Part shown: in pieces, positions 1 through 16,554 of the stretch
Numbering within the stretch: position 1 is the stretch's first letter
How the letters are laid out: each line of letters starts with the position of its first letter
DNA from: Acaryochloridaceae cyanobacterium SU_2_1
GTDB lineage: Bacteria > Cyanobacteriota > Cyanobacteriia > Thermosynechococcales > Thermosynechococcaceae
DNA: 16,554 nt
Reading direction: 5' to 3'
Assembly: GCA_012030735.1 (NCBI GenBank)
Contig: JAAUUW010000065.1
Span: 1-16,554, forward strand
Notes under the pieces: generated by a model
The model's database searches: none
Seen by the model: only the letters and a program-made list of their open reading frames with translations
Told to the model about the DNA's origin: nothing
Made by a program: the position numbers and the translations under genes

Positions 1-1
1 C

Positions 2-2709: not shown

Positions 2710-2986
2710 GCTGCTTATCCAGTAACCTTAAGAAGAATCATATCTCAAGGTTTTAGATTACTTCAATTTATTTGTTGATTTCTGTTGCTTAGGTGATTGT
2801 TTTAGCTGCCAGATTTCTGTAGATTACTGAGAGAGCGAATATGATCAGGGTTTTCAGCTAAAAACAGCCCTTAGGGTCAGTTAATCGCTATCTTAAGCCA
2901 AGGAATTTCTAGGAAGAAGTCCAGCTCATTTGCTTTATTTTCATAACCCATCTATGGGCAATGTCCTATACAGCGAAGCACGGAGG

Positions 2987-4036
2987 ATGTCAATGCTGCA
3001 GAAACGGTACTTAGCCTTAGCCCAGCTCTTGATTTTGAGCTCATGCTTGGGAGGTTTTGGGCTTGAGGATCGAGTTGCGATCGCCCAAAAACGAGACACT
3101 GCGATCTACGAAGACGATCTCAACACTGCGGATGGTTTGCGATGGGCTGGTCCTAAACTACCCTACCGTCGAACTGTGGATATTAAAGATGGTCTAGTGG
3201 GTGTGCCCTTGGGCAAGGTGGCAGCAGATCGTCATGGAATTGGCTCCTCTGTGAATCTTGCTGACATAATCACCGGCACTTTTTCCCACCCAGTTCCTGG
3301 AAGAGCTGTCTATATTTCCCTGTGGGGAAGTAAAATCGAAGGCTGCTTTGTAGAAATTGTTGTTCAACTAGCACCGAATAATGACACCTTAGAAAAAGCA
3401 GATATGGTACCCAGTCTTTTAGAGCTGGGAATTGGCAGTCAACTGTTGGAGTTACCGCCGCAAACCACAAGCGAGCCCAAATTATTAAGCCAGAACTATC
3501 GATACTTTGCCGCCAACTTACAGGACGAATCGACGGGCACCTGGTATATGACCCGTAATGTATTTGTAGTGGATTCAGCCATTGCCCAGATTCTTAGTAA
3601 TGCCCCTGACTCGGAAGTGCGTGCCCGCCTGACCATGGCCAATGGCCAAAAAATCTTGATTCCCATCAATAAAAAAACGGTGGCGAGCTGGAAAACAGCC
3701 TATGCCTTTAACCCTGCTTGTCAATCCCCAGACAAACTTGCTCAACAAACAGCCCTCAGCCAAAAGCCTTTGCTGAAAGCCTTTACCGACTATTCTGGTT
3801 CGGCTAGCCAGATAGCAGCCTTAGACTGGCTTCAAACTCAAATCAACGCACCGATCTTGGCTGAATTTACACAGCGTTGGCGAGGCACAAAAACTGCCAA
3901 TGGTCAGTCCTTAAAGTTGATCAATGCCGCTAAGTTCTACCAGAAAATACCCCAGCAACAAGAAGCGCTGGAATGGTTACAAGGTAAACTTACCAAACAT
4001 ACCCAAGACCAGTTTTTACAAAAATGGGGATCCTGA
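2987..4036 (+). CDS. Secreted hypothetical protein with two C-terminal 24-aa repeats
   Basis: The ORF is open from 2930. The likely start is ATG 2987 or 2993, after ggagg at 2982-2986, giving the signal peptide MSMLQKRYLALAQLLILSSCLGG. Repeat consensus is Q-x-x-A-L-[DE]-W-L-Q-x2-[IL]-x7-F-x-Q-[RK]-W, at nt 3809-3880 and 3956-4027. Confidence 0.65.
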   Translation: MSMLQKRYLALAQLLILSSCLGGFGLEDRVAIAQKRDTAIYEDDLNTADGLRWAGPKLPYRRTVDIKDGLVGVPLGKVAADRHGIGSSVNLADIITGTFSHPVPGRAVYISLWGSKIEGCFVEIVVQLAPNNDTLEKADMVPSLLELGIGSQLLELPPQTTSEPKLLSQNYRYFAANLQDESTGTWYMTRNVFVVDSAIAQILSNAPDSEVRARLTMANGQKILIPINKKTVASWKTAYAFNPACQSPDKLAQQTALSQKPLLKAFTDYSGSASQIAALDWLQTQINAPILAEFTQRWRGTKTANGQSLKLINAAKFYQKIPQQQEALEWLQGKLTKHTQDQFLQKWGS

Positions 4037-4040
4037 ATTA

Positions 4041-4763
4041 ATGGATGAGCGATTTACGGTGGAGGTGATTTCCCAATCTCTGAACCCCCAACAAATTATT
4101 TATGCTGCGATGCATCAGGATTATGCAGAGGAGTTGGTCTGGGATCAACGGGATCAATGGCCCGATGAGCAAAATTCTGGCGAGCTAGTGGTCAAAAATC
4201 TTTTGCAAGGTAATCGAGGCCATTATGGTCCCTTTGAGCATCCTCAAATTGTCTTGAATTTTGGTTATTTTCCCCATAGCACCATGCAGCAAATGCGTAC
4301 TCATCGGAACGTATCCTTTGATGTGCAATCCTTTCGCTATACGGGTCAGAGAATTTTAGAGGTGGCTGAGGGTAAACAAGATCTAGAGGATGTCTTCTAT
4401 TTACGGCCCGTGGGCAGCTATAGCGATCGTCAGGGCAAAAAATATGACTATACGGCCGAGCAGCGTCAGCAAGATCTAGACTGGTGCCAGCAAGCTTGCC
4501 AGCGCTATGCTGAACGAGTGGGGCAAGGGCTAGCGGAAGAGCATGCCCGGGGGCTGATTCCCTTTGATGTGCGTCAACATTGGGTGATGAGTGCCAATGC
4601 ACGATCGCTGATGCATCTGCTAGATATTCGGGGTAAATTTGATGTCCAAATTGAAACTCGGATCATGACCGAACTGATGTTTACCCAGTTTCAACAATGG
4701 ATGCCAGAAGTTGCCAGTTGGTACGAAAAGACTCGGTGGCGTAAAGGACCTTTAGCGCCCTAA
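4041..4763 (+). CDS. thyX: FAD-dependent thymidylate synthase ThyX
   Basis: ThyX signature RHRxxSxxxxSxRY is seen as MRTHRNVSFDVQSFRY. The N-terminus MDERFTVEVISQSLNPQQIIYAAMHQDY is typical. ATG 4041 lies 4 nt after the upstream stop (4034-4036). The 3924 start in the ORF track overlaps the upstream gene and is rejected. Confidence 0.92.
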   Translation: MDERFTVEVISQSLNPQQIIYAAMHQDYAEELVWDQRDQWPDEQNSGELVVKNLLQGNRGHYGPFEHPQIVLNFGYFPHSTMQQMRTHRNVSFDVQSFRYTGQRILEVAEGKQDLEDVFYLRPVGSYSDRQGKKYDYTAEQRQQDLDWCQQACQRYAERVGQGLAEEHARGLIPFDVRQHWVMSANARSLMHLLDIRGKFDVQIETRIMTELMFTQFQQWMPEVASWYEKTRWRKGPLAP

Positions 4764-4903
4764 GTTTCGTCTAGGGATCGAATTGAGACTCTCCTTGCCA
4801 TGGCGATGGACTAGATTTGTCCTGCGATGCTGCCCGTCATTCTGCAATTTTGCCCTTCTCTATGCTCACCTTCTCTCTACAGTAAACAGATACAGGCTTA
4901 CAT

Positions 4904-6154
4904 ATGTCTATGACCCCTCGGCAATGGCGATCCTTAATCAGTGCAACTGTAATGGCGATCGCAACGACACTTGCCACCGCTATCTCCCCTGCCACCGCCA
5001 AACTAGAGGACAGTCCCAAAGCCTTAGTCGATCAAGCCTGGCAAATTGTCCATCAAGAATATGCGGATCGCAGCTTTAACGACAAAGATTGGTTAGCTGT
5101 CCGCCAACAATATTTAAGCCAGCCCTACAGTTCAACTGACCAAGCCTATTTGGCGGTTGACCAAATGCTCAAGCAATTGGGAGATCCCTATACGCGTTTT
5201 TTGACTCCAGCGGGCATGAAGGATATCGTCGATAACGTTTCTGGTGACTTTATTGGGGTGGGAGTGACCGTCACCTTAGACCCCCTCACCCAAGAATGGG
5301 TTGTGCTCGAGGTGGCCCCCGGTTCCCCCGCAGCAAATGTGGGGATTAGCAAGCAAGACATTGTGGTCAGCATCAATGGCAAACAGACCGCCAGTATTAA
5401 CCCTCGGCAAGCTAGTCAATACATTATTGGACCTGTGGGCAGTAAAGTTGCCCTGCAAGTCCGGCGAGGGCGAGATTTCTTAGTCCATCAGTTAGTGCGC
5501 GAGCATATTGATCTTAACCCCCTGATCTATGGGGTCCAAAGCACAGATAAGGGCAAGTTTGGTTATATCCGCATGCCCGTTTTTACCACTAAATCGACCA
5601 AGGCCATGGAGCAAGCCTTGATTACCTTAGAAAAGCAGCAAGTACAGGGCTATCTTTTAGACTTACGTCACAATCCAGGCGGTGTGTTTGAGGCCAGTAT
5701 TGACATTGCCCGCCTATGGATGGGCTCTGGTCAAGTGATCTCTTCTATTTTACAAAGAGGACAAAAGGAAGTATTTCGTGCCCCAGGGCCAGGCTATACA
5801 GCCAAGCCTCTCGTGGTCCTAGTGGATGAACAGTCTGCCAGTGCTAGCGAAGTCCTAGCCGCCGCCCTCCAAGATAATCGCCGCGCTCCAATAGTCGGCA
5901 CTAAAACCTTTGGCAAGGGCATTGTCCAAAATCTTAAGGCCCTGACGGACGGATCGGGCGTCGTTGTCACCACTGCTCAATACTTTACCCCCAAGGGCAA
6001 AAATATCCACAAGATTGGCTTAACCCCTGATCTAATTGTTAATCTGCCGGAGGGGACAAGCTTCAAACCCAAAGCCAGTGAGGTTCTGCCACCCCTGACC
6101 GATCAGCAATATGCCCGAGCTTTAAAACTACTCACCAAACAGACTCGGCCTTAA
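4904..6154 (+). CDS. Carboxyl-terminal processing protease (S41 family, Ctp; paralogue A/B/C not resolved)
   Basis: Signal or TM segment (LISATVMAIATTLATAISPATA), a PDZ-like region (VVLEVAPGSPAANVGISKQDIVVSING) and S41 catalytic contexts (VDEQSASASEVLAAAL; TFGKGIVQ). Confidence 0.92.
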   Translation: MSMTPRQWRSLISATVMAIATTLATAISPATAKLEDSPKALVDQAWQIVHQEYADRSFNDKDWLAVRQQYLSQPYSSTDQAYLAVDQMLKQLGDPYTRFLTPAGMKDIVDNVSGDFIGVGVTVTLDPLTQEWVVLEVAPGSPAANVGISKQDIVVSINGKQTASINPRQASQYIIGPVGSKVALQVRRGRDFLVHQLVREHIDLNPLIYGVQSTDKGKFGYIRMPVFTTKSTKAMEQALITLEKQQVQGYLLDLRHNPGGVFEASIDIARLWMGSGQVISSILQRGQKEVFRAPGPGYTAKPLVVLVDEQSASASEVLAAALQDNRRAPIVGTKTFGKGIVQNLKALTDGSGVVVTTAQYFTPKGKNIHKIGLTPDLIVNLPEGTSFKPKASEVLPPLTDQQYARALKLLTKQTRP

Positions 6155-6180: not shown

Positions 6181-7542
6181 TCAGAGCGTCATCGCCTGCG
6201 GATTCTCTTCCAAGAGTATTGCGAGATCCTTGAGAAAGGCAGCAGCATCAGCGCCATAGATCACTCGGTGATCACAGGTGATGTTCACCTTCATTTGTCG
6301 CTTGACCCCTAACATACCCTGTTGATCAGCCACAACCTGGGGTTGGGAGCCACCAATGGCCAAGATCGATCCTTGGCCAGGGGGCAAGATCGCATCAAAG
6401 CTATCCACCCCAAACATGCCCAGGTTAGAGAGGGTAAAGGTGCCAGTGCTATATTCCTGGGGCTGGAGTTGCTTGGTCCGCGCCCGCGCCACTAGATCCT
6501 TCCAAGTTCGAGACAGGGAGTAGAGATCCAGCTGGTCTGCCTGGGGGAGGACGGGGGTAATCAGACCACCACCAGGCATGGCCACAGCAACAGCAATATT
6601 GATTTGGCTATTGTATTGAATTCCCTCGGGGGCAAAACTGGCATTGACTAAGGGATGCTGGCGCAGGGTGAGGGCAATCGCCTTTGCCAACAGAGCGGTC
6701 ATGGTCACGCCTTTGCCCTTGACTTGCTGGTAGAGCTGATCTAATGCATCGGTAATGATTGTATAGCCAACATGGAAAGTAGGGACTTCTAAGCTGGCGA
6801 TCATATTATTGATCACTGCTTGCTGCAAAGTATTGAAGGGTACCCGTTCACCTGCTGCCACTGCTGCTGGCAAAGGCGCTGCTGATAGAGACGCCGACGC
6901 TGGCTGAGAGGGCATGGTGCTATGACTGGGCGTGGCGTTGCTTCTACCTGAAGTTTGGCCCGCAGCCGCTTCGATATCTGCTGCGACAATCCGACCATGG
7001 GGACCCGTTCCCCTTAGGCTAGTGGGATCTACTTTGAATTGCTTGGCGAGTTTACGGGCACGGGGAGATAGAGCCAGACGACCGCTTGAACTGGGCTGGG
7101 GAGCAGTCTGGGTCGGGGTTACCGTTGCCGTGACGGAGGTCGGGGCTGGGTTGCCACCGCCATTTAAGGCGGCAGCAACGGCCGGAGAAGAATTGGTGAT
7201 CGCAACAGCAGCCTCTGCCCCTGCAGCAGGGGTCGGCGCTGGAGCAACTGGAACCGAAGCAGTAGCGGTATTGGCCTTGGCCTGGGCTTCGGGAATTTCA
7301 GCTTCGGTTTCAGCGACATAACCCAGGGCAGAACCCACGGCAGCAACGCCCCCTGCAGGCACAGCAATCGCCGCTAAATACCCACTATAGAAAGATTCCA
7401 CATCCATATCGGCCTTATCCGATTCCACGATGAGGACGGTGTCACCCTTTTCTACCTTGTCTCCTGGCTCCTTCGACCAAGAGACAATCTTGCCCTCCGT
7501 CATGGTCGAGCTGAGCGCGGGCATAAACACTTCATGAATCAT
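6181..7542 (-). CDS. pdhC: Dihydrolipoamide acetyltransferase, E2 component of pyruvate dehydrogenase
   Basis: N-terminal lipoyl domain (MIHEVFMPALSSTMTEGKIVSW...VESDKADMDVE), a long Ala/Pro-rich linker, a subunit-binding motif (LSPRARKLAKQFKVD...GTGPHGRI) and the catalytic motif DHRVIYGADAAAFL. Confidence 0.95.
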   Translation of the reverse strand: MIHEVFMPALSSTMTEGKIVSWSKEPGDKVEKGDTVLIVESDKADMDVESFYSGYLAAIAVPAGGVAAVGSALGYVAETEAEIPEAQAKANTATASVPVAPAPTPAAGAEAAVAITNSSPAVAAALNGGGNPAPTSVTATVTPTQTAPQPSSSGRLALSPRARKLAKQFKVDPTSLRGTGPHGRIVAADIEAAAGQTSGRSNATPSHSTMPSQPASASLSAAPLPAAVAAGERVPFNTLQQAVINNMIASLEVPTFHVGYTIITDALDQLYQQVKGKGVTMTALLAKAIALTLRQHPLVNASFAPEGIQYNSQINIAVAVAMPGGGLITPVLPQADQLDLYSLSRTWKDLVARARTKQLQPQEYSTGTFTLSNLGMFGVDSFDAILPPGQGSILAIGGSQPQVVADQQGMLGVKRQMKVNITCDHRVIYGADAAAFLKDLAILLEENPQAMTL

Positions 7543-7649
7543 GGGTTAGCGTTCCAAAACCAAATAGCGACATAAACCATAGCTTATCCAGTTTGAATTT
7601 TAGCTTGATTCGCGCCGCTAGAATGATGTCCTTATAGCCAATATCGAAG

Positions 7650-8519
7650 TTATTGGAATCCTCCGGTCAACCAGGCTGTTGGATCTACAGATTTGCCGTT
7701 GACATTGAGGCCAAAATGCAAATGCGGGCCTGTAGAAGCCCCCGTAGAACCAACAGTACCGATAATTTGACCCTTTTGGACCATTTGACCCTCTTTAACA
7801 TTGATCTGACTCAAGTGCAAATAAACTGTGTTGACCCCTTGGCCATGATCAATCCCGATAATATTGCCATGAATGCGAAAACCCTCAGCTTCACGACCCA
7901 CCAGCCGCACCTGACCCGAGGCCGCTGCCTTGACCGGAGAGCCAGCCCAGCCTGCGTAATCTAGACCGCGATGATAGTCTGGATCTGAATAATCACCGTT
8001 GTAAATACGTCGAATGCCGTACCCAGCGGTTAATGGTCCATTGTTGGGGCGCTGAAAAGGGCCATTCCAGAGCCGTTTAGGAGAAACAATGGCCTTGAAG
8101 GCATCGACGCGGTCAAATTCTAAGTCTGTCCCAGAATGATCATTCCCTGGCAGCCAAATACTTTGGGTAGGAAACCAGCGATCGCCAATCCATAGCACCA
8201 TATTGCGGGTCTGCTGATTGCCGGTGACAAGGAGGCTGCGTCGGCCATGCTTCTCTATGGCGATCGTAGGCATTAAAGCTCGCCAACGGTTGGCAGAGAT
8301 TTGATAGACCGGTAAAGCTTGTCCTGCAACTTTTATGGTGGGTGCTTGATTAAGCTGCTCTCCAGGCTCTGGGGTGACTGTAATGGAGAGCGTATCGCCC
8401 AAGCGAGGTTTAGAGGGTTGAACCACCACTTCAATGGCTAGGGCAGGGGCAAGACCGATGCTTGAGAAGCAAATAGTCCATAGCACCAATCTGAGCGTGG
8501 CAATAGATTGAAAGGTCAT
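7650..8519 (-). CDS. M23 family metallopeptidase (LytM/lysostaphin-like), secreted
   Basis: Signal peptide (LVLWTICFSSIGLAPALA). M23 motifs are HRGLDYA (HxxxD) and GSTGASTGPHLHFGLNVNG (HxH). Confidence 0.9.
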   Translation of the reverse strand: MTFQSIATLRLVLWTICFSSIGLAPALAIEVVVQPSKPRLGDTLSITVTPEPGEQLNQAPTIKVAGQALPVYQISANRWRALMPTIAIEKHGRRSLLVTGNQQTRNMVLWIGDRWFPTQSIWLPGNDHSGTDLEFDRVDAFKAIVSPKRLWNGPFQRPNNGPLTAGYGIRRIYNGDYSDPDYHRGLDYAGWAGSPVKAAASGQVRLVGREAEGFRIHGNIIGIDHGQGVNTVYLHLSQINVKEGQMVQKGQIIGTVGSTGASTGPHLHFGLNVNGKSVDPTAWLTGGFQ

Positions 8520-8628
8520 AAATGATCGGGGGTGAGATTGTTGGGGTTGTTTTTATCAAGAGCCACGCAGGGGATCTGCGGATCGGTTGCTCTATTTCTA
8601 AGCCTTATAGCTCCTCACTAGCAAAGGA

Positions 8629-8997
8629 CTAACCAATCCAAGGAATCGTTCCTTGGCCCTTGGGTCGCTTTTGGCCAGAGGATCCGGATTGACTAGATTG
8701 ACTCGGTGCAGAGCGATTTCGATGGGTCAGGCAGTCGCTCATTTCTTCCTTGGAGAGTTGGAGGCTGCTGCGCTCCGGCAAAATAACTTTTTGAAAAAGA
8801 TATTCAATGGTTTGCTCCTTCACCCAGCCTCGTGCCACCACAATCTCACCAAAGGGCATAGCTGTGAGATTTTGATCGGCAAGGGCAACTCCTACCTGTG
8901 CTTCTGTTATCAAACCCGCCTCCACCAGATATGTCCCGAGGGGTCTGTGGGTATAGAGCAGTTTTCGGTTTGAATGTGGCATTGCCATTGATTCCAA
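8629..8997 (-). CDS. Small protein with an MshEN/T2SSE_N-like domain and a Ser/Gln-rich tail
   Basis: Two helix-pair motifs, LGTYLVEAGLITEAQVGVALADQ and FGEIVVARGWVKEQTIEYLF, match the pattern LGxxL(V)xxGxIxxxQ(L)xxAL typical of GspE/MshE N-terminal domains. The start codon is uncertain because there are several in-frame ATGs. Confidence 0.5.
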   Translation of the reverse strand: MESMAMPHSNRKLLYTHRPLGTYLVEAGLITEAQVGVALADQNLTAMPFGEIVVARGWVKEQTIEYLFQKVILPERSSLQLSKEEMSDCLTHRNRSAPSQSSQSGSSGQKRPKGQGTIPWIG

Positions 8998-9208
8998 TCC
9001 TCACCAGAAAGGGGAGATCCGGCATTAGCCAGATCTGAATCAGGGTGGCTATCAGGCTCTGAGTAGAGCTAAAAATAACAATGCTGATCGCCCAATAACT
9101 TAGAAAAAATATAACATAGGGCGCTCTTAGTCAGCTCAGCGCCATAACAAGGCTAGATTTGCCCTGTCTCCTTAGATTTGATCACACTAATTTGATCAGA
9201 TTAAACTC

Positions 9209-9424
9209 TTAAGCCTTTGGTTTTAGGAAGACGATGGCTTGCTTCCAGACAATGGTGGGTTGATCATAATGGTCGAGTAAACATAAGCAGGAGGTATCCT
9301 GCCAACGGATTTTTCCAATGAGTAAATCATTGGTGAGCAGCTTAATCTCAACTTCGGATTCCTCTTGAATCAGATTTTGTAGCTGCCGCACGCTGGGAAG
9401 ATTGACATCCAGTTCAATGGCCAT
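9209..9424 (-). CDS. hfq: Cyanobacterial-type Hfq (Sm-like RNA chaperone homologue), 71 aa
   Basis: MAIELDVNLPSVRQLQNLIQEESEVEIKLLTNDLLIGKIRWQDTSCLCLLDHYDQPTIVWKQAIVFLKPKA follows the cyanobacterial Hfq pattern remembered from Synechocystis and Anabaena Hfq (LPS[VI]RQ[LV]Q.LI...VEIKL.T.D...G...WQD...C....D.....T.[IV]WKQAI..L.PK). Confidence 0.85.
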   Translation of the reverse strand: MAIELDVNLPSVRQLQNLIQEESEVEIKLLTNDLLIGKIRWQDTSCLCLLDHYDQPTIVWKQAIVFLKPKA

Positions 9425-9586
9425 AGGAATTAGGGGGGTGGGTGGACAAGTTAACGTTGCACAGGTGATCGCAGGCCCTCAACAGAGACTGATGCTGCCA
9501 TGATAATGGCAATATCCTCAAATATCATTCCCGCTTGCTCAGAGTACTATAAGGGAAGGTCTATTTTTGTAACACAAGGATTGCTG

Positions 9587-10435
9587 ATGCGGGTTGAGTT
9601 TACTAAGTATCAAGGGCTCGGTAATGATTTTGTCCTAGTGGATAATCGACACCAGTCTCAACCCTGTTTAACTCCGGCCCAAGCTGTGCAGATTTGCGAT
9701 CGCAACTTTGGCGTCGGTGCCGACGGTGTAATCTTTGCCTTGCCATCAGTCAAGAATACCGACTATCGCCTCCGCATTTACAATTCCGATGGTTCAGAAC
9801 CAGAAATGTGTGGCAATGGCATTCGTTGTTTAGCCCGCTTTCTGGCCCAACTCGAAGGTCAGCCCGCCACAGCGACTGTCACCTACCGCATTGATACCCT
9901 CGCTGGCGTGATCACACCCAGACTACAAGCCAATGGCCAAGTGGAAGTAGAGATGAGCCCTCCCTATTTAGCTGCCGATCAAATTCCCACCACCTTAGCC
10001 AGTGGCCAACCCCAGGTGATCAATCAACCCTTAGCGGTAGCAGGGCAGACCTGGTCTGTGACCTGCCTTAGCATGGGAAATCCTCATTGTGTGATCTTTG
10101 TTGAAGATTTAGAAGCGATAGATCTGACTATCTTAGGGCCTCAGTTCGAGCATCATCCTCAATTTCCCCAACGCATCAATACCGAGTTCATCCAAGTCCT
10201 CCGTCCGGACTATCTGAAGATGAGAGTCTGGGAGCGCGGGGCGGGCTTAACGCTGGCCTGTGGAACCGGCGCTTGTGCCGCCTTAGTTGCAGGTGTGTTA
10301 ACGGGGCATTGCCAAGGGGAAGCGACCATTGAGTTGCCGGGTGGGCCTCTGTTGATTCGGTGGATGGGGCAGGGGCATCCTGTTTATATGACCGGACCTG
10401 CTGAGCAGGTGTTTACCGGAGTTTTAGATCTTTGA
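9587..10435 (+). CDS. dapF: Diaminopimelate epimerase
   Basis: MRVEFTKYQGLGNDFVLVDNR is a canonical DapF N-terminus. Active-site Cys contexts are EMCGNGIRC and LACGTGACA. ATG 9587 is preferred over the track start at 9500, whose 29-aa extension lacks DapF-like sequence. Confidence 0.95.
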   Translation: MRVEFTKYQGLGNDFVLVDNRHQSQPCLTPAQAVQICDRNFGVGADGVIFALPSVKNTDYRLRIYNSDGSEPEMCGNGIRCLARFLAQLEGQPATATVTYRIDTLAGVITPRLQANGQVEVEMSPPYLAADQIPTTLASGQPQVINQPLAVAGQTWSVTCLSMGNPHCVIFVEDLEAIDLTILGPQFEHHPQFPQRINTEFIQVLRPDYLKMRVWERGAGLTLACGTGACAALVAGVLTGHCQGEATIELPGGPLLIRWMGQGHPVYMTGPAEQVFTGVLDL

Positions 10436-10533
10436 CCCGTTTTCGCCTGAGGGTTCTGGTATAAGGCATTTGGGTTCATTGAATCTATATCTATCCTCTG
10501 AGCAACAGACCAGGGAGAATCCTTGGATGAAAC

Positions 10534-10547
10534 AACCATTAATGGTT
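10534..10547. repeat. Perfect 14-bp palindrome AACCATTAATGGTT upstream of the amidohydrolase gene
   Basis: Read directly from the sequence. It lies about 60 nt upstream of ATG 10608, in the 172-nt dapF/amidohydrolase intergenic region. Its function is unknown. Confidence 0.5.
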
Positions 10548-10607
10548 CTGCCCTAGCCACCGAATCTTCGATACAGTAGAGTCAGATGTCTTGTTTCCCT
10601 AACCTCC

Positions 10608-11864
10608 ATGGTTTCTTCTGCAATTGCTAGTTCTAGCTTCGGATCGGCTGGATCGATGCCCGTTCGGCCCCAAATTCAAGACTTGCAGGCCGAGGTGATT
10701 GCTTGGCGACGCCATCTGCATCAATATCCTGAGCTGGGGTATAAAGAAGAACAAACCGCTGACTTTATCCAACAGAAGTTAAGTCAATGGGGAATTGAGC
10801 ATCAAGCAGGTATTGCCCAGACAGGGATAGTAGCGACCATCCCCGGCCAGGAACCCGGCCCTGTCTTGGCCATTCGAGCAGATATGGATGCCTTGCCCAT
10901 TCAAGAGGAAAATGAAGTTCCCTATCGATCTCGCCATGATGGGGTGATGCATGCCTGTGGCCATGACGGACATACGGCCATCGCCCTGGGGACGGCCTAT
11001 TATCTTGCCCAGCATCGTGCTGACTTTGCGGGGACAGTCAAACTCATTTTTCAGCCCGCCGAAGAATCGCCAGGGGGGGCTAAACCAATGATTGAGGCTG
11101 GGGTGCTTCGCAACCCAACCGTCGATGCCATGGTGGGTCTTCATTTATGGAATAACCTGCCCTTGGGGACAGTAGGGCTGCGGGAAGGTCCCCTAATGGC
11201 AGCGGTAGATTTGTTTGAATGCTCGATTCAGGGCAAGGGAGGCCACGGGGCCATGCCTCACCAAACCATTGATGCAGTGGTGGTTAGTGCTCAAATTGTC
11301 AATGCATTGCAAAGTATTGTCGCCCGTGGTCTTGATCCCTTAGATGCCGCTGTGCTTACGGTGGGCCAGTTACATACAGGCAGCGCTTCGAATGTGATTG
11401 CTGACCGGGCCTGGATGAGTGGCACGGTTCGCTACTTCAACCCTGATTTAGCCATGGAGACGGCGGGCTTACCCTCTGTGATCGCAGCCCAAATGGACCA
11501 GATCATCACTGGGGTTTGCCAAAGCTGGGGGGCGACGGCCCAACTCAAATATTGGCATCTCTATCCTGCCGTGATCAATGATCCGAGGGTAACGGACATG
11601 GTGCGGTCGATTGCCACCTCCCTGGTGGAAACGCCCCTGGGCTTGGTCCCCAACTGCCAAACCATGGGCGGTGAGGACATGTCATTTTTCTTGCAAGAGG
11701 TGCCTGGATGCTATTTCTTTTTAGGATCTGCTAATCCTAGCCAGGGCTTAGATTTCCCTCACCATCATCCTCAGTTTAATTTTGACGAATCGGCACTGGC
11801 CCTAGGCATTGAAATTTTTGTGCGCTGTGCAGAAACCTTTAACCTCGAGGTTGTGGGCCGCTAA
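10608..11864 (+). CDS. M20D family amidohydrolase (N-acyl-L-amino acid amidohydrolase / hippuricase-like)
   Basis: Motifs RRHLHQYPELGYKE, LAIRADMDALPI, HACGHDGHTA, FQPAEE and GGEDMSFF are typical of M20D peptidases. Confidence 0.9.
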   Translation: MVSSAIASSSFGSAGSMPVRPQIQDLQAEVIAWRRHLHQYPELGYKEEQTADFIQQKLSQWGIEHQAGIAQTGIVATIPGQEPGPVLAIRADMDALPIQEENEVPYRSRHDGVMHACGHDGHTAIALGTAYYLAQHRADFAGTVKLIFQPAEESPGGAKPMIEAGVLRNPTVDAMVGLHLWNNLPLGTVGLREGPLMAAVDLFECSIQGKGGHGAMPHQTIDAVVVSAQIVNALQSIVARGLDPLDAAVLTVGQLHTGSASNVIADRAWMSGTVRYFNPDLAMETAGLPSVIAAQMDQIITGVCQSWGATAQLKYWHLYPAVINDPRVTDMVRSIATSLVETPLGLVPNCQTMGGEDMSFFLQEVPGCYFFLGSANPSQGLDFPHHHPQFNFDESALALGIEIFVRCAETFNLEVVGR

Positions 11865-11865
11865 A

Positions 11866-11909
11866 AGCTAAGGATTATGGCCTTAGACGCTCGCGTTTGA
11901 TCCTTAGCT
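11866..11909. repeat. Perfect 10-bp inverted repeat (potential stem-loop) starting 2 nt after the amidohydrolase stop codon
   Basis: AGCTAAGGAT (11866-11875) is the exact reverse complement of ATCCTTAGCT (11900-11909), with a 24-nt loop. No U-tract follows, so a terminator function is not established. Confidence 0.5.
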
Positions 11910-12069
11910 CCGTAAAATAGGCTAGTATCAGCCTCATAAACCGCTCAAGAGCCATTTTGAAGTCTTGATGTTATATTAAGTCCGAAACTCTTGTTTTTAT
12001 TTTTGTAGATAATTTTATAGATCTGAACATTCACTCCGTAATCCATCTAAGTTTTAGGAGATTTTAACC

Positions 12070-12360
12070 TTGACAACCGCAACCCTGTCCAAAGAGACCC
12101 TCATTGTTGCCACCTCTGAGCAAGTCTCCTCCGACCTCGCCGGTGAATCCGTGATTCTGAATCTAAAAACCGGCATGTATTTTGGCTTGAATGAGGTGGG
12201 GGCAAGCATTTGGAATTTGCTGAAAGAGCCTCGATTGGTGAGTGATATCCTGGCCTTGATCCAGCAAGATTATGAAGTTCAGGCCAGTCAATGTGAGCAA
12301 GATGTTCTGGCCTTGCTCCAGGAGTTAATGGCTTCGGAATTGATCGAGATCAAAAATTGA
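12070..12360 (+). CDS. PqqD-family RiPP recognition element; lasso peptide biosynthesis protein B1
   Basis: ESVILNLKTGMYFGLNEVGASIWNLL...DILALIQQDYEV...CEQDVLALLQELMASELIE is the PqqD/RRE pattern (beta strands followed by a winged helix). The start is TTG at 12070 with aggag at 12056-12060. An in-frame stop lies at 12055-12057, and the first in-frame ATG would remove the beta-strand region. Confidence 0.85.
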   Translation: MTTATLSKETLIVATSEQVSSDLAGESVILNLKTGMYFGLNEVGASIWNLLKEPRLVSDILALIQQDYEVQASQCEQDVLALLQELMASELIEIKN

Positions 12361-12364
12361 GTTA

Positions 12365-12829
12365 ATGATGAAGCCATTGCTTAAGTTTATAGGGCTATCG
12401 CAGCGAGAACGTCACTTTTTGCTCAAAACCTATCTGCTATTAGGGCTGATTCGCCTTGGTTTATGGCTGTTGCCCTTTCAAACTTTGCAAGCATGGTTGG
12501 CTAAATTACAGCATAAACCGGGCCTCTATCAAGCCCCCAAACTCACCAAAATCAGTTCTCGATCTGTGGGTAAAGCCATTTGGGCGGTCAATGTCAGTAG
12601 TCGCTATATGCCAGGGAAAGTTAAATGTTTGGCTCGCGCCTTAGCCACTCAAGTCTTAATCTGCCGCCAAGGCTATCAGCCAGAGCTGAAAATTGGTGTG
12701 GCTAAGGCCGCAGATCATTCCTTAGAGGCCCATGCATGGATTGAGCTGCAAGGACAGGTGATTATGGGTTTAGTCCATGATTTATCCCGCTTTACACCTA
12801 TGCCCTCTCTAGACTCAAAATCACGCTAA
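12365..12829 (+). CDS. Lasso peptide biosynthesis B2 protein (transglutaminase-like cysteine protease that removes the leader)
   Basis: GKVKCLARALATQVLICRQGYQPELKIGVAKAADHSLEAHAWIELQGQVIMG is the hallmark B2 core, with Cys88, His123 and a possible Asp139. The gene starts 4 nt after the B1 stop. Confidence 0.9.
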   Translation: MMKPLLKFIGLSQRERHFLLKTYLLLGLIRLGLWLLPFQTLQAWLAKLQHKPGLYQAPKLTKISSRSVGKAIWAVNVSSRYMPGKVKCLARALATQVLICRQGYQPELKIGVAKAADHSLEAHAWIELQGQVIMGLVHDLSRFTPMPSLDSKSR

Positions 12830-12921
12830 TCTTGCCTAGTCGAGGCCTGATCCTTACAATCACCCCATAGAGAACCAAATTCATTCCACCATTGCTGACC
12901 TTAATTTTTGCTTAGACAACA

Positions 12922-13530
12922 ATGCCTAATGCTGACTTTTTTGGACGGTTAGGGCTTTTTGTCCGTCGTGATTTCCTTGATCCTGATTTTTGTAGACAGT
13001 ATCTCTTAGAGGCCCAAACTTGTCATTGTGCTTTGGCCCAACTGAGGCGCAATGGTGGTGTGATCACTGATGAAAGCCATCGCCGTACCCAGCAATTGCG
13101 AGTGTCCACCAGTACCTTTCAAGAGATTAAACAACGATTATTGACGACGATGCCTGAGGTGGCTAGACATTTCCAACTCACCCTTGCAGAACTGGAGTCA
13201 CCTTCTTTTTATCGGTATCAGGAGGGTGATTTCTTTGGTATTCATAAGGATGTGATTGAGCCAGATTTACCGGGTTCTAGATTTGAGAAAAATCGCAAGG
13301 TTTCCTTAATTCTGTTCTTGAATAGTTTTGCTGAAGCACCCAGCCAAAATAGCTTTTCCGAGGGCACTCTAACCCTCTATGGTCTGCTGAAGGATCCGCG
13401 ATCGCAAAACTTTGGCTTTCCTCTCGAACCCGAGCAAGGGGTACTCATTGGCTTCCCTGCCGAGGTTTGGCATGAAGTCAAGCCCGTCACCCGTGGTGAA
13501 CGCTTCACCATTGTCAGTTGGTTTATTTAG
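12922..13530 (+). CDS. 2-oxoglutarate/Fe(II)-dependent oxygenase (prolyl-4-hydroxylase-like fold); candidate lasso tailoring hydroxylase
   Basis: HxD facial-triad motif FFGIHKDV (His108/Asp110, nt 13243-13251). The distal His is in EVWHEVKPV and the 2OG-binding Arg in GERFTIVSWF. Confidence 0.85.
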   Translation: MPNADFFGRLGLFVRRDFLDPDFCRQYLLEAQTCHCALAQLRRNGGVITDESHRRTQQLRVSTSTFQEIKQRLLTTMPEVARHFQLTLAELESPSFYRYQEGDFFGIHKDVIEPDLPGSRFEKNRKVSLILFLNSFAEAPSQNSFSEGTLTLYGLLKDPRSQNFGFPLEPEQGVLIGFPAEVWHEVKPVTRGERFTIVSWFI

Positions 13531-13600
13531 GGGCGAACCCTGTCGCTTTTAAAATTTGCTCTGTCAGTTTGAACCTACCTGCAGGTACCCTTAAATCCTT

Positions 13601-14546
13601 ATGTCACATTGCTATTCAGCCTACGGGCTGATGATTGACTCAGAGATTCAGTTGCCAGAACTGATCCTCCATGGGGGATCAGTTCTGGGATCAACCCCAG
13701 GATCAACCTCAACCTCAGAGGCTGATCTCTGTCTTCGTTTAGGTCAGATTGATCCCAACCCCTTAGCCGACAGCGATGCACCTCATCGCTACAAAAATAC
13801 CGATCAAGGCATGTATCTCTATTGGCAAGGGGTGGGCTATTTCTGGATACAATCGGGTCGCAGAATACTGATCGATTTAGAGGTAGATCTAGACGAAGAC
13901 CGTCTACGTCTATTTATATTGGGGAGCAGTGATGGGTGTCGTATTGCATCAACGGGGCTTTTTGGTGATGCATGCCAGCGCCGTGGCGATGCAAGGAGCG
14001 GCGGTGATCTTTATGGGAGATAAACGCTGGGGAAAGTCCACTATGGCTGCGGCCTTACATGCCAACGGACATAGCTTGATTGCCGATGATGTGGTGGCCT
14101 TAGAGATCAGCCCCTCACAACCGATTAAAGTCCGGCCCGCCTTTCCCCAAATCAAATTATGGCCCGATGCCGTCGCCTCTTTGGGCCAAGATCCTGATCA
14201 AATCCCGCGGTTAGCTGCCCCCTTCGAAAAACGCGACCATCGGTTATCCGCAGGTTTTACGATGGATATTCTGCCCCTCCAGCAAATCTATGTTTTGGGA
14301 CAGGGAGAACAGATCGAAATCACTCCCCTCTCCGCCCAGGAGATGCTTCAACATTTGTTCCGCAATTCTTATATCACCCGCTTTGGTGAAACATTGTTGC
14401 AGCCCAACAGTGCAGCACATTTCCAGCAATTGACAACCCTGGCTCAGCAAGTTCCCCCTCAGCGGTTGCTACGACCAGCAAACTTAGACCTACTGCCTAC
14501 CGTTGTTACACTGGTCGAGACCCATGCCAGTGGTCATCCCTCTTAA
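13601..14546 (+). pseudogene. HPr kinase-like (HprK-related) kinase of the kind found in lasso clusters, split by one frameshift near 13921-13928
   Basis: The N-terminal part is in frame 2 (MSHCYSAYGLMIDSEIQLPEL...DLCLRLG...RLRLFILG). The C-terminal part is in frame 3 (VMGVVLHQRGFLVMHASAVAMQGAAVIFMGDKRWGKSTMAAAL), with a P-loop-like GDKRWGKST at 14016-14042. Deleting one G from the GGGG run at 13921-13924 gives the continuous sequence RLFILGAVMGVVLHQRGFLVMHASAV and a 314-aa product. Confidence 0.8.
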
Positions 14547-14575
14547 TCCATTGTCGTTATGGTGCGTCTGTTTGT

Positions 14576-16554
14576 ATGAGTGCGATCGCAGGTATCTTTC
14601 ATCGAGATCATTGTCCCCTTCAGCCCCAACAACTCGAAGAGATGATCCAAGCCCTCGCGCATCGCGGGCCACAGGGTTGCCATAGCTGGCTGCAAGGATC
14701 GATTGGCCTCGGACATTGCTTACTATGGACAACACCTGAATCCATCCATGAGACCCTTCCTCTGCAACAAGAAACCCTCGTAATCACCGCCGATGTTCGT
14801 CTAGATAATCGTCCAGATCTGATCGATCAACTCGATCTTCAAGACCCTGATCTGAGCCAACTGACCGACAGCCAACTGATCCTAGCTGCCTATCAGCGCT
14901 GGGGAAAAAGCTGCCCAGCATATCTGCTTGGGGATTTTGCCTTTGCCCTTTGGGATGGCAAACAGCAACAGCTATTTTGTGCCCGCGATCATTTTGGTGT
15001 CAAACCTTTTTTTTTATCATGCCACCGAGGGGCTGTTTGTTTTTGCCACGGAAATCAAAGCCCTGTTAACTCAGCCAGAGGTTCCCAATCGCTTAAACCC
15101 AGTGAGAGTTGGCGACTATCTCACCTTAATGCTCTTTGACAAGACCATAACCTTCTATGAGCAGGTTCTGCGTCTACCCCCCGCCCATTCCTTGATCGTG
15201 GGGCTAGAGACCTTAGAACTCAACTGCTACTGGGAATTAGACCCTAACTATGAACTGCGTCTAGAGAGCGATGCTGCCTATGTGGAGCAATTTCGGGCAA
15301 TTTTTACAGAGGCCGTTCATTGCCGTCTACGCAGCGCTTTTCCGATTGGCACAATGCTCAGCGGGGGCTTAGATTCCTCCTCTATTACCTGTACAGCAAC
15401 CCAGTTGTTAGAGCAAAGTCACCCGAAGGGTGGGGGTTCAAAATTACCAACCTTTACCGCTGTATTTAACGAAATCACCGCCTCCGACGAGCAAGACTAT
15501 ATTCAGGCGGTGATCGCTCAAGGCCAAATCGAATCCCATGTGATTCAAGGAGATCAACTCAGTCCTTGGACGGAGATTCAACAGGTTCTAAGCCAACAGG
15601 ATGAGCCCCTCTTTGCCTGCAACCTCCATCTCACCAGAGCCTTATACAAAGTGGCTCAAGCAAAACAGGTTCGGGTCATCCTAGACGGATTCGATGGCGA
15701 CATGGCCGTCTCTCATGGCGTAGGCTATCTCAGAGAATTAGCCCGCGCTGGTCACTGGCTAAAACTAGCCCAGGAAATGCAAGGCTTTGCCCTGAGTTTC
15801 AATTACGCTTTCCCCCAGCTCTATTGGTCCTATCTCTATCGATATGGGCTAAGACCGATCCTCAAGCGGACAAAACTACTCAAAGTCCTTCCTAAAATTC
15901 AAAAGATTAAACAAAATAGCTTCGGCACCAAAACGAAAACCAGAGCTGAGGCTTCCCCCCCTTGGTCCCTCCCCCTACAGCCAACCTTTACCGAAGAAAT
16001 TCACCTGCGAGAGCGCTATCAACAGTTATACCAAGCCCGTTTTGGCCCCAGCCAATGCCAACGCCAAGAGCATTACCAGGATGTCACCTCTGGTTTAATT
16101 TCTTGACCCTAGAAGTCATGGATAGAGCCGCAGCACCCCATGGCATAGAATTAAGGTTCCCCTTTTGGGACAAGCGTTTAGTTGAATTCTGTGTCTCCCT
16201 GCCCGCCGAGCAAAAAATGCAACAGGCTGGACTCGGATGATCCTACGTCGAGCCATGGTCGATATTCTGCCCACCAAAATTCAATGGCGCCGAGGCAAAG
16301 GCAATTTAGGGATAGCCTTTGATCACACCTTGCAAAAGTTTGGGAAAGGGCTAATGGCCGAAGTCATCAATCATTCCTCAGACAGCCTCTCTACCTTCAT
16401 CGATATGGCTGATTTAGGTAAAATCTATGAGCGTTTCAACCAAGGCCAAGCAAGCACAGAAGATATCCTATCCCTATGGCAAGCCGTTAACTTATCCCTG
16501 TGGTTAGAGACTCGTCAGTCTTCAACCACAGGGATAAGTCCTAAAGTAAATTAA
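14576..16554 (+). pseudogene. Asparagine-synthetase-like lasso peptide cyclase (C protein), broken into four frames by three frameshifts
   Basis: N-terminus MSAIAGIFHRDHCPL...ALAHRGPQGCHSW..GSIGLGHCLLWTTPES...LVITADVRLDNR. PP-loop SGGLDS lies at 15360-15377. The C-terminal region reads DRAAAPHGIELRFPFWDKRLVEF...GWTRMILRRAMVDILP...RRGKG. Frames run 2 to 3 (T9 run 15007-15015), 3 to 2 (16089-16105) and 2 to 1 (A6 run 16212-16217). The raw length is 1979 nt. The proposed -1/+1/+1 corrections give 1980 nt, or 660 codons including the stop. Confidence 0.85.

What the first reader, a model, noticed from the sequence alone, without database searches (positions are those of the whole stretch)
12070..16554. 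Lasso-peptide gene cluster with split B1/B2, a 2OG oxygenase and an HPr-kinase-like kinase in a cyanobacterial context
Five co-directional, tightly spaced genes encode the core lasso machinery: a PqqD-like RRE (B1), a transglutaminase-like Cys protease (B2) and an Asn-synthetase-like cyclase (C). Two candidate tailoring enzymes sit between B2 and C. The core assignments rest on motifs read directly from the translations (KCLARALA...EAHAWIE; SGGLDS; PqqD pattern). From established knowledge, split-B lasso clusters with HprK-like kinases give C-terminally phosphorylated lasso peptides, as in the paeninodin type. As far as I know, no cyanobacterial lasso peptide has been isolated, and the gene order B1-B2-oxygenase-kinase-C with both a hydroxylase and a kinase has not been characterised. 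The cluster begins abruptly after housekeeping genes, behind an AT-rich spacer, and reaches the window edge, so a transporter, an isopeptidase or the precursor may lie further downstream.
Basis: partly seen in the sequence, partly recalled or inferred. Interest (0 to 1): 0.85.

Follow-up and report, generated by a model that had tools for sequence, protein, structure and literature searches.

The report
Doubly tailored cyanobacterial lasso-peptide gene cluster
This is a real, probably intact gene cluster for a knotted ("lasso") peptide in an Acaryochloris-family cyanobacterium, with an added kinase and oxygenase; it is an uncharacterised variant of a well-known pathway, and its apparent gene breaks are assembly errors.

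Summary
Window 12070-16554 (+) carries five co-directional genes. They are a PqqD-type recognition protein (B1), a transglutaminase-like leader protease (B2), a 2OG/Fe(II) oxygenase, an HPr-kinase-like kinase (K) and an Asn-synthetase-like lasso cyclase (C). Lasso-specific NCBIfam models pass their curated cut-offs.

In the window, K has one frameshift and C has three. An overlapping public contig (Acaryochloridaceae cyanobacterium CSU_5_19) matches with 0 substitutions and 11 single-base indels. Choosing between the two at each indel gives intact K (314 aa) and C (659 aa; 848 bits against a cut-off of 525). The breaks are therefore assembly errors, not decay.

A 47-aa precursor starts 296 bp past the window end and matches NCBIfam "lasso_cyano"; it ends in Ser. 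An ABC exporter follows it.

A syntenic but larger cluster sits in Acaryochloris marina MBIC11017. Oxygenase homologues at 37-62% identity recur beside lasso C and K genes, mainly in cyanobacteria but also in other phyla. The oxygenase model resembles peptidyl-prolyl hydroxylases, but its target is unknown.

I found no report of a characterised cyanobacterial lasso peptide, or of a lasso pathway combining this oxygenase type with a kinase.

The parts
11865..12069 (.). AT-rich intergenic spacer between the M20 amidohydrolase gene and B1. It probably holds the operon's promoter and ribosome-binding site (AGGAG at 12056-12060, 9 nt before the TTG start).
   Evidence: 36% GC against 49-50% in the flanks. 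Sequence read. The sigma-70 consensus scan found no site in this spacer, so a promoter here is inferred only.
12070..12360 (+). B1: PqqD-family RiPP recognition element (96 aa) that binds the precursor's leader.
   Evidence: PF05402 73 bits. NF033536 lasso_PqqD_Bac 81.9 bits against a cut-off of 80. 75% identical to the A. marina MBIC11017 B1.
12365..12829 (+). B2: transglutaminase-like Cys protease (154 aa) that removes the leader. Cys88 lies in KCLARALA and His123 in EAHAWIE.
   Evidence: PF13471 101 bits. NF033537 lasso_biosyn_B2 115.5 bits against a cut-off of 33, covering 3-131 of 132 profile positions. Motif positions.
12922..13530 (+). 2OG/Fe(II) oxygenase (202 aa) with a prolyl-hydroxylase-like fold; candidate tailoring hydroxylase.
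   Evidence: PF13640 49 bits. H108, D110, H184 and R194 are invariant in 40 homologues. AF2 model pLDDT 91. Best PDB matches are P. putida prolyl-4-hydroxylase (TM 0.73), PHD2 and algal P4H. Homologues at 37-62% identity sit inside lasso clusters.
13601..14546 (+). K: HPr-kinase-like P-loop kinase, 314 aa after repair. The window carries one extra G in the run 13921-13924, which splits it into ORFs 13601-14023 and 13929-14546.
   Evidence: Hpr_kinase_C E=3e-7 to 6e-7, 29.6-30.6 bits, below the Pfam cut-off of 33.3. PDB HprK/P hits at E about 0.01. AF2 model pLDDT 89.5; top fold matches are L. casei HprK/P, then PEPCK. His124, GKST 144-147 and Asp162-Asp163 are invariant in 38 homologues. Repair shown.
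14576..16554 (+). C: Asn-synthetase-like lasso cyclase, 659 aa after repair. The window has three single-base errors: an extra T in the run 15007-15015, a missing C after 16104, and a missing G at 16225-16226. The stop codon is the last three bases of the window.
   Evidence: The four fragments match NF033535 lass_lactam_cya positions 1-152, 147-528, 530-570 and 575-667. The repaired protein scores 848.4 bits against a cut-off of 525 over 1-667 of 668 positions. SGGLDS PP-loop motif seen. One continuous 649-aa tblastn alignment to the A. marina C protein at 59% identity.

Best explanation
This is the five-gene enzymatic part of an intact class-II-type, split-B lasso-peptide operon in an Acaryochloridaceae cyanobacterium. 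The full order is B1-B2-oxygenase-K-C inside the window, then precursor A and ABC exporter D just beyond the window end.

Proposed pathway:
1. The 47-aa precursor MKKNYNAPQLKVYGSVENMTQ/SAPTLNRIDVPFGTPISGEDINDVTS is bound through its YxxPxL...G...T leader by B1.
2. [quoted passage not shown] A Pro of the conserved DVPFGTP stretch is my leading guess. Asp or Asn is also possible.
3. B2 removes the leader.
4. C uses ATP to join the new N-terminus (Ser1, or Ala if cleavage is one residue later) to Asp9 (or Asp8). This traps the tail as a lasso.
5. D exports the product.

What is shown: gene identities, catalytic motifs, the precursor, the exporter, and conservation of this gene set in relatives.

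What is inferred: the order of steps (by analogy with paeninodin and canucin), the phosphorylation site, the hydroxylation target, the ring size and the threaded topology.

The four frameshifts in the window are single-base assembly errors.
For: - Lasso-specific curated HMMs are passed by B1, B2, the repaired C and the precursor.
- The overlapping contig L004 (GCA_012033145.1, JAAUPK010000032.1) equals window 13119-16554 with 0 mismatches and 11 one-base indels.
- No frameshift is shared. Picking one assembly's version at each site yields K of 314 aa and C of 659 aa.
- Each repaired protein aligns to its A. marina orthologue in a single HSP.
- The precursor and an MsbA-like ABC exporter lie on L004 at 3735-3878 and 3988-5688.
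- The same gene set (M20, B1, B2, oxygenase, K, C, two precursor genes, D) is present in A. marina MBIC11017, where the precursors end in D(V/I)TS.
- Oxygenase, K and C also co-occur in freshwater and other cyanobacteria, Binatia and Acidobacteriota.
- The oxygenase facial triad and 2OG-binding Arg are invariant, and the fold resembles PHD/P4H enzymes.
- K has an HprK/P-like fold with the His, P-loop Lys and Asp-Asp residues invariant. Reviews report a conserved catalytic His-Lys-Asp-Asp motif in lasso kinases, phosphorylation of the precursor's C-terminal Ser, and B1-assisted hydroxylation of the linear precursor by the Fe/2OG enzyme CanE (PMC9266682, PMC8498205).
Against: - No product has been observed.
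- K scores just below Pfam's gathering threshold (29.6 against 33.3 bits) and far below every NCBIfam kinase cut-off.
- Several related K-containing clusters have precursors that do not end in Ser (L006 ...PSA, L008 ...GPV, L023 ...PNV). C-terminal Ser phosphorylation is therefore not a rule for this kinase clade.
- A PF13640 enzyme in a graspetide pathway hydroxylates an isopeptide-linked Lys after cyclisation (PMC13097080). Neither the prolyl target nor action before cyclisation can be assumed.
- In the A. marina and L005 precursors the residue after the T-x leader end is Asn. This is unusual for a lasso N-terminus, so the cleavage site and ring size are uncertain.
- About 6.6 kb of conserved housekeeping genes upstream in the window show no frameshift. 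The error density is therefore very uneven. I attribute this to the poorly covered end of a contig, but I did not prove it.
Confidence: 0.8

Rival explanations
1. The cluster is a decaying relic. K and C are true pseudogenes broken by frameshifts, and no peptide is made.
For: The window as given has 4 frameshifts in 3 kb. The roughly 6.6 kb of conserved housekeeping genes upstream has none. An IS4 transposase fragment lies at the window start.
Against: An independent overlapping contig of the same organism has none of these four frameshifts. It has five different indels of its own in coding sequence, and not a single substitution. Real pseudogenising mutations would be shared. Three of the four window errors lie in homopolymer runs. 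The repaired proteins align end to end with orthologues and keep all catalytic motifs.
Confidence: 0.07
2. The core lasso machinery is functional, but the oxygenase and/or kinase do not act on the lasso precursor. They could be passenger genes, or serve another substrate such as self-immunity or regulation.
For: No biochemical data exist. Most oxygenase homologues at 40% identity or less (Pyrinomonadaceae and others) are not next to lasso genes. Some relatives with K lack a C-terminal Ser.
Against: The oxygenase sits between B2 and K or C with gaps of 70-92 nt and in the same orientation. The oxygenase, K and C association persists from 62% down to about 37% oxygenase identity (L023) and across phyla, with gene order shuffled. 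That pattern indicates functional linkage. Characterised lasso kinases and the Fe/2OG enzyme CanE act on the precursor (PMC9266682).
Confidence: 0.1
3. The Asn-synthetase-like and transglutaminase-like genes make something other than a lasso peptide, for example another macrolactam or an amidated product.
For: Asn-synthetase homologues also make non-lasso macrolactams. The albusnodin/ikarugamycin-type model gives a weak hit.
Against: The cyanobacterial lasso cyclase model scores 848 bits against 94.6 bits for the macrolactam model. The B1 and B2 lasso models are passed. A precursor with the canonical lasso leader and an Asp at core position 8 or 9 lies next to C.
Confidence: 0.03

Closest known systems
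Paeninodin-type phosphorylated lasso peptides (Paenibacillus dendritiformis PadeK; ThcoK; SyanK)
   Same: Split B1/B2, an HPr-kinase-like kinase in the operon, an ABC exporter, and a precursor ending in Ser. The kinase keeps the His, P-loop Lys and Asp-Asp residues reported as catalytic (PMC9266682).
   Different: The phylum is Cyanobacteria; the reviews describe such clusters in Firmicutes and Proteobacteria (PMC8498205). The gene order is B1-B2-oxygenase-K-C-A-D. A 2OG oxygenase is added. Sequence relatedness to PadeK, ThcoK or SyanK was not tested. Some clade members lack a C-terminal Ser.
[quoted passage not shown]
   Same: A lasso cluster that carries an Fe(II)/2OG-dependent oxygenase as a tailoring enzyme, together with a split B1 that could present the linear precursor (PMC9266682).
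   Different: This precursor ends in Ser, not Asp. The oxygenase has a PHD/P4H-like fold (PF13640). Its relation to CanE is untested. A kinase is also present.
NCBIfam cyanobacterial lasso set (NF033528 lasso_cyano precursor; NF033535 lass_lactam_cya cyclase) and genome-mined cyanobacterial lasso clusters (Cyanocohniella sp. LLY, Roseofilum)
   Same: The precursor and the repaired cyclase pass both curated cut-offs. The B1-B2-C core is as described in PMC9332814 and PMC9967302.
   Different: The published examples describe only core genes, with or without transporters. They report no oxygenase-plus-kinase pair and no product.
Acaryochloris marina MBIC11017 chromosomal cluster (NC_009925.1, about 1.908-1.919 Mb)
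   Same: Same position downstream of the M20 amidohydrolase gene (74% identity). Orthologues: B1 75%, B2 73%, oxygenase 60%, K 63%, C 59% identity to the window proteins, and an orthologous ABC exporter (82% to the L005 exporter used as query). Precursors share the DVPFGT...D(V/I)TS pattern.
   Different: The A. marina cluster has two extra genes, a 307-aa weakly glycosyltransferase-like gene and a JmjC-domain oxygenase. It also has two precursor genes. The window's cluster is the pared-down version.
CorC, the PF13640 2OG oxygenase of the corallotide graspetide pathway
   Same: Same Pfam family, used as a RiPP tailoring hydroxylase (PMC13097080).
   Different: CorC hydroxylates the delta-carbon of an isopeptide-linked Lys after cyclisation. 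This core peptide has no Lys.

Membership tests
Lasso peptide biosynthetic gene cluster (split-B type) | B1: a PqqD-like recognition element | tested here: met
   NF033536 81.9 bits against a cut-off of 80; PF05402 73 bits.
Lasso peptide biosynthetic gene cluster (split-B type) | B2: a transglutaminase-like Cys protease with catalytic Cys and His | tested here: met
   NF033537 115.5 bits against a cut-off of 33; Cys88 and His123 present.
Lasso peptide biosynthetic gene cluster (split-B type) | C: an Asn-synthetase-like lasso cyclase, full length | tested here: met
   In the window the gene lies in four frames, and no single fragment reaches the cut-off. After repair using the overlapping contig it scores 848.4 bits against a cut-off of 525.
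Lasso peptide biosynthetic gene cluster (split-B type) | A precursor with a YxxPxL...G...T-x leader and a core with Asp or Glu at position 7-9 | tested here: met
   Absent from the window. Found 296 bp past the window end on L004 at 3735-3878. NF033528 39.8 bits against a cut-off of 33. Thr at -2 and Asp at core position 9, or position 8 if cleavage is one residue later.
Lasso peptide biosynthetic gene cluster (split-B type) | A threaded macrolactam product | not testable with these tools
   Requires expression, MS/MS and NMR.
Paeninodin-type phosphorylated lasso peptides | An HPr-kinase-family kinase encoded in the cluster | tested here: inconclusive
   Pfam Hpr_kinase_C gives E=6e-7, but 29.6 bits is below the gathering score of 33.3. 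NCBIfam kinase models score far below their cut-offs. The fold search puts HprK/P first, at TM about 0.5. The catalytic-type residues are invariant. It is HprK-like, but it does not pass a curated threshold.
Paeninodin-type phosphorylated lasso peptides | A precursor ending in Ser, the phosphorylation site | tested here: met
   The precursor ends ...NDVTS. The same is true of the A. marina, L005 and Cyanomargarita precursors, but not of L006, L008 or L023.
Paeninodin-type phosphorylated lasso peptides | Orthology to PadeK, ThcoK or SyanK, and demonstrated phosphorylation | not tested
The activity needs an experiment.
CanE-type lasso hydroxylation | An Fe(II)/2OG oxygenase with an intact HxD...H triad and a 2OG-binding Arg | tested here: met
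   H108, D110, H184 and R194 are invariant in 40 homologues.
CanE-type lasso hydroxylation | A C-terminal Asp as the substrate residue | tested here: not met
   The precursor ends in Ser; the nearest Asp is four residues from the end. The chemistry is therefore probably different from canucin.
Peptidyl-prolyl 4-hydroxylases (PHD/P4H) | A PHD/P4H-like double-stranded beta-helix fold | tested here: met
   The top Foldseek PDB hits are P. putida P4H (TM 0.73, E 8e-12), PHD2 and Chlamydomonas P4H.
Peptidyl-prolyl 4-hydroxylases (PHD/P4H) | Pro as the hydroxylated residue | not testable with these tools
   Pro residues are conserved in the core (DVPFGTP), but Pro also occurs in precursors of clusters without the oxygenase. 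Another PF13640 RiPP enzyme hydroxylates Lys (PMC13097080).

The most novel reading that the evidence does not exclude
This cluster and its relatives in Acaryochloris and other cyanobacteria, with more distant examples in Binatia and Acidobacteriota, define an uncharacterised lasso-peptide subfamily. A prolyl-hydroxylase-like 2OG oxygenase and an HprK-like kinase would both modify the same precursor, giving a hydroxylated (possibly hydroxyproline-containing) and C-terminally phosphorylated lasso peptide. I found no report of that chemistry for lasso peptides. It would also be the first characterised lasso peptide from a cyanobacterium.
Probability: 0.4. Interest if true: 0.55.

Novelty: new variant of a known kind. 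Interest (0 to 1): 0.42.

Why it matters
Lasso peptides are stable scaffolds with antibiotic and receptor-antagonist activities, and tailoring enzymes that accept linear precursors are useful engineering tools.

Solved lasso structures came from only three phyla as of 2025 (PMC12214591). One paper calls cyanobacterial lasso peptides "underexplored" (PMC9967302). The reviews I read describe lasso kinases only in Firmicutes and Proteobacteria, and lasso hydroxylation only on C-terminal Asp or Trp (PMC8498205, PMC9266682).

This locus points to a conserved family that combines a PHD-like oxygenase with a kinase, found in several phyla. A related, larger cluster with the same core genes lies in a cultured, fully sequenced strain (A. 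marina MBIC11017), so the prediction can be tested directly.

It is a solid genome-mining lead rather than a conceptual surprise. The core pathway, curated HMMs for cyanobacterial lasso genes, and both classes of tailoring enzyme are already known.

The case also shows that apparent pseudogenes at the ends of metagenome-assembled contigs can be indel artefacts.

Tried and rejected
- **Precursor inside the window.** A six-frame regex for the lasso leader motif gave only spurious hits inside thyX and on the strand opposite the M23 peptidase gene. Rejected: the precursor lies outside the window.
- **Exact-sequence look-ups.** Look-ups of the window's B2 and of the best C homologue found no contig.
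- **Real pseudogenisation.** Considered because the upstream housekeeping genes are intact. Rejected because the overlapping contig shares none of the frameshifts.
- **Horizontally acquired island.** GC content is not distinctive (0.49 against 0.50), and the position downstream of M20 is shared with A. marina. Not supported.
- **Promoter and terminator scan of 11700-14700.** The number of sites was no higher than in shuffled sequence, and no promoter was called in the AT-rich spacer. Uninformative.
- **Sequence search of the PDB.** The oxygenase gave only weak PKHD-type hydroxylase hits (E 1e-3), and B2 gave nothing meaningful. Fold search was needed for the oxygenase.
- **Using precursor conservation to pin the oxygenase target.** Pro is present in every precursor, including those of clusters without the oxygenase, so it does not discriminate.
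- **Literature.** The paeninodin paper (PMC4919450) and the RODEO paper (PMC5391289) are not held. I therefore could not check whether they already list cyanobacterial kinase clusters or kinase-plus-oxygenase clusters. The phrase 'cyanobacterial lasso peptide' returned nothing. Searches pairing 'lasso peptide' with Acaryochloris, hydroxyproline, prolyl hydroxylase or PF13640 returned only papers with no relevant characterisation.

Full report
**1. The observation**

ORF listing of window 10500-16554 shows five co-directional + strand genes with short gaps. They are 12070-12360 (96 aa), 12365-12829 (154 aa), 12922-13530 (202 aa), a kinase-like gene over 13601-14546, and an Asn-synthetase-like gene over 14576-16554.

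Pfam assigns them as follows:
- PqqD, 73 bits.
- Transglut_core3, 101 bits.
- 2OG-FeII_Oxy_3, 49 bits.
- Hpr_kinase_C, E=3e-7.
- GATase_7 plus Asn_synthase.

NCBIfam is more specific:
- lasso_PqqD_Bac, 81.9 bits against a cut-off of 80.
- lasso_biosyn_B2, 115.5 bits against a cut-off of 33.
- For the last gene, the cyanobacterial lasso cyclase model NF033535, matched in four consecutive pieces at model positions 1-152, 147-528, 530-570 and 575-667.

The caveat is that the kinase occupies two reading frames and the cyclase four.

**2. The frameshifts are assembly artefacts**

A search with the oxygenase found a partial protein 100% identical to it, from the metagenome-assembled genome "Acaryochloridaceae cyanobacterium CSU_5_19". 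Its contig is L004 (GCA_012033145.1, JAAUPK010000032.1, 7152 bp).

L004 positions 1-3439 align to window 13119-16554 with 0 mismatches and 11 single-base gaps. Most of the gaps lie in or beside homopolymers. The cyclase is fragmented in L004 too, but at different places.

I enumerated the two alternatives at every differing site. One combination gives an uninterrupted 314-aa kinase and a 659-aa cyclase. It takes the L004 version at the four window errors and the window version elsewhere.
- The window errors are an extra G at 13921-13924, an extra T in the T9 run 15007-15015, a missing C after 16104, and a missing G at 16225-16226.
- The repaired cyclase scores 848.4 bits against a cut-off of 525, over 1-667 of 668 model positions.
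- Both repaired proteins align to their Acaryochloris marina orthologues in single HSPs.

No frameshift is shared and there are no substitutions, so these are consensus indel errors and not pseudogenising mutations.

One oddity remains. The conserved housekeeping genes upstream in the window are all full length: thyX, ctpB-like, PDH E2, dapF and M20. The errors are therefore concentrated in the last 3 kb. That would fit two contig ends overlapping with low coverage, but I could not verify it.

**3. The missing parts**

The window contains no lasso precursor. On L004 a 47-aa ORF starts 296 bp after the cyclase stop codon, which is the window's last base. Its sequence is MKKNYNAPQLKVYGSVENMTQSAPTLNRIDVPFGTPISGEDINDVTS.

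It passes the curated NCBIfam model for cyanobacterial lasso precursors, NF033528, at 39.8 bits against a cut-off of 33. It has these features:
- the YxxPxL...G...T-x leader, with Thr at -2;
- a small residue at core position 1 (Ser);
- Asp at position 9, or position 8 if cleavage is one residue later;
- a C-terminal Ser.

An MsbA-like ABC exporter follows at L004 3988-5688, and then a GT4 glycosyltransferase.

**4. Relatives and context**

The closest cyclase homologues in the large protein collection are only about 48% identical. Many are annotated "lasso peptide isopeptide bond-forming cyclase" in Nostocaceae, Richelia, Pleurocapsa, Cyanomargarita and Merismopedia, and also in Chloroflexi and Binatia. 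Cyanomargarita has the order B1-B2-C-A-K-D with no oxygenase.

The oxygenase has closer relatives, and these are informative.
- At 62% identity, a Logan contig (L005) carries oxygenase, a 318-aa gene, K, a JmjC gene, C, A and D.
- At 60%, the complete chromosome of Acaryochloris marina MBIC11017 carries M20, B1, B2, oxygenase, a 307-aa gene, K, JmjC, C, A1, A2 and D.
- Its M20 gene is 74% identical to the window's upstream gene. The cluster therefore sits at a conserved chromosomal position and is not a recent insertion.
- At 45-48%, freshwater metagenome contigs carry B1-B2-oxygenase-C-A-K-methyltransferase-D, and B1-oxygenase-C-A-K.

In the scan of species-representative genomes, roughly 15 of the 80 oxygenase loci also hold a lasso-type C and/or K. 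They come from cyanobacteria, Binatia, Acidobacteriota and Actinomycetota. The many Pyrinomonadaceae homologues at 40% identity or less do not. One of those lies beside radical-SAM genes.

The oxygenase, K and C linkage survives gene-order shuffling and phylum boundaries. That argues all three act on the same peptide.

**5. The two tailoring enzymes**

*Oxygenase.* H108, D110, H184 and R194 are invariant in 40 homologues. The AlphaFold model has pLDDT 91. Its best PDB matches are protein prolyl hydroxylases: P. putida P4H, which hydroxylates EF-Tu (TM 0.73), then PHD2 and algal P4H. PKHD-type hydroxylases follow.

The core peptides of the Acaryochloris-type clusters (window/L004, L005, A. marina) and L008 share D-V-P-F-G-T, usually followed by Pro; more distant oxygenase-linked clusters share only a Pro near the ring Asp (L006, DVPRGP) or elsewhere in the tail. 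A prolyl target is my leading guess. It is weak for three reasons:
- Pro also occurs in precursors of clusters without the oxygenase.
- A PF13640 enzyme in a graspetide pathway hydroxylates an isopeptide-linked Lys (PMC13097080).
- The one characterised lasso Fe/2OG hydroxylase, CanE, acts on a C-terminal Asp (PMC9266682), which this precursor lacks.

*Kinase.* Pfam Hpr_kinase_C is matched at E=6e-7 but 29.6 bits, below the gathering score of 33.3. PDB sequence hits are HprK/P at E about 0.01. The AlphaFold model has pLDDT 89.5, and its best fold matches are L. casei HprK/P and then PEPCK. His124, the GKST P-loop and Asp162-Asp163 are invariant. This matches the His-Lys-Asp-Asp motif reported for lasso kinases (PMC9266682).

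The precursor's C-terminal Ser fits the paeninodin rule. However, three related K-containing clusters have precursors that do not end in Ser.

**6. Mechanism**

The most likely sequence of events is:
1. B1 binds the leader of the precursor.
2. K and the oxygenase modify the linear precursor. This order is inferred by analogy with PadeK, ThcoK and CanE, all of which act before cyclisation (PMC9266682, PMC8498205).
3. B2 cleaves after the T-x leader end.
4. C forms the N-terminus-to-Asp isopeptide bond.
5. D exports the product.

The gene identities and the conserved linkage are shown. The order of steps, the modification sites, the ring size and the threading are inferred.

**7. Comparison with what is known, and novelty**

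Cyanobacterial lasso clusters are already recognised. NCBI has curated precursor and cyclase models for them. Genome-mining papers describe core clusters in Cyanocohniella and Roseofilum (PMC9332814, PMC9967302).

I found no report of a characterised cyanobacterial lasso peptide.
- The exact phrase is absent from the library.
- Lasso peptides are called "underexplored in Cyanobacteria" (PMC9967302).
- Solved lasso structures come from three other phyla (PMC12214591).

The reviews place lasso kinases in Firmicutes and Proteobacteria, and list hydroxylation only on a C-terminal Asp or Trp (PMC8498205, PMC9266682). Searches pairing lasso peptides with Acaryochloris, hydroxyproline, prolyl hydroxylase or PF13640 gave nothing relevant. 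The primary paeninodin and RODEO papers were not readable, so prior bioinformatic listing of this architecture cannot be excluded.

My verdict is a genuine, probably intact cluster that is a new variant of a known kind.

Noticed in passing
window 2-745 (+): The window opens inside the C-terminal part of an IS4-family transposase (residues 3-92 match model positions 311-405 of 405). The same open frame runs on into a DoxX/MauE-like membrane protein, with no stop codon between them. This could be an IS insertion next to doxX, or another indel artefact at a contig end.
   Followed up: partly
window 13119-16554 compared with L004 1-3439: Two assemblies of the same locus differ by 11 single-base indels and 0 substitutions. 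Each assembly breaks K and C at different places. The conserved housekeeping genes upstream in the window show no frameshift, so the errors are concentrated at the overlapping contig ends.
   Followed up: yes
window 10608-11864 (+); L012 7768-8994; L003 1458-2639: An M20 amidohydrolase gene lies directly upstream of the lasso cluster here and in A. marina MBIC11017 (74% identity). A 40%-identical M20 gene lies a few kb upstream of the Merismopedia lasso cyclase. This is probably synteny of a housekeeping gene. A role in the pathway was not examined.
   Followed up: partly
L012 (A. marina MBIC11017, NC_009925.1) 10624-11547 and 12539-13789; L005 10648-11604 and 12644-13867: The Acaryochloris marina and L005 versions of the cluster carry two genes that the window lacks. 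One is a 307-318-aa protein with only a faint GT2-like hit. The other is a JmjC-domain (cupin) oxygenase between K and C. A. marina also has two precursor genes. This suggests still more tailoring steps in those strains.
   Followed up: partly
L012 16067-16207 and 16392-16532; L005 16142-16288: In these precursors the residue after the conserved leader end (M-T-K) is Asn. This is an unusual first residue for a lasso core. Either cleavage is shifted by one residue, giving Ala or Ser at position 1 and an 8-membered ring, or this clade tolerates an N-terminal Asn.
   Followed up: no
L005, whole 20.6-kb locus: This relative has oxygenase, K, JmjC, C, A and D, but no B1 or B2 within 10 kb on either side by tblastn. 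The leader-recognition and protease genes must lie elsewhere or be absent.
   Followed up: partly
L003 (Merismopedia glauca, PVWJ01000035.1) 6475-12840: This lasso cyclase is flanked by two NTP_transf_5 nucleotidyltransferase genes, an HprK-like kinase, two nearly identical precursors that do not end in Ser, and a B1 on the opposite strand. No B2 was detected. It recalls the kinase-plus-nucleotidyltransferase pair of pseudomycoidin.
   Followed up: no
L009 and L010 9001-17167 (Pyrinomonadaceae-type contigs): A 38%-identical homologue of the oxygenase sits beside a B12-binding radical-SAM enzyme, a 984-aa AMMECR1-domain protein and a SPASM radical-SAM enzyme, with no lasso genes nearby. This may be a different peptide-modification system that uses the same oxygenase family.
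   Followed up: no
P0252 (A. marina orthologue of K): NCBI names this protein 'phosphoenolpyruvate carboxykinase (ATP)', while UniRef calls it HPr kinase/phosphorylase. The PEPCK name looks like an over-annotation based on the shared P-loop fold.
   Followed up: partly
window 2930-4036 (+) and 894-1676 (+): Two sizeable ORFs (368 aa and 260 aa) have no Pfam or NCBIfam match. The first overlaps the start of the thyX ORF by about 110 nt.
   Followed up: no
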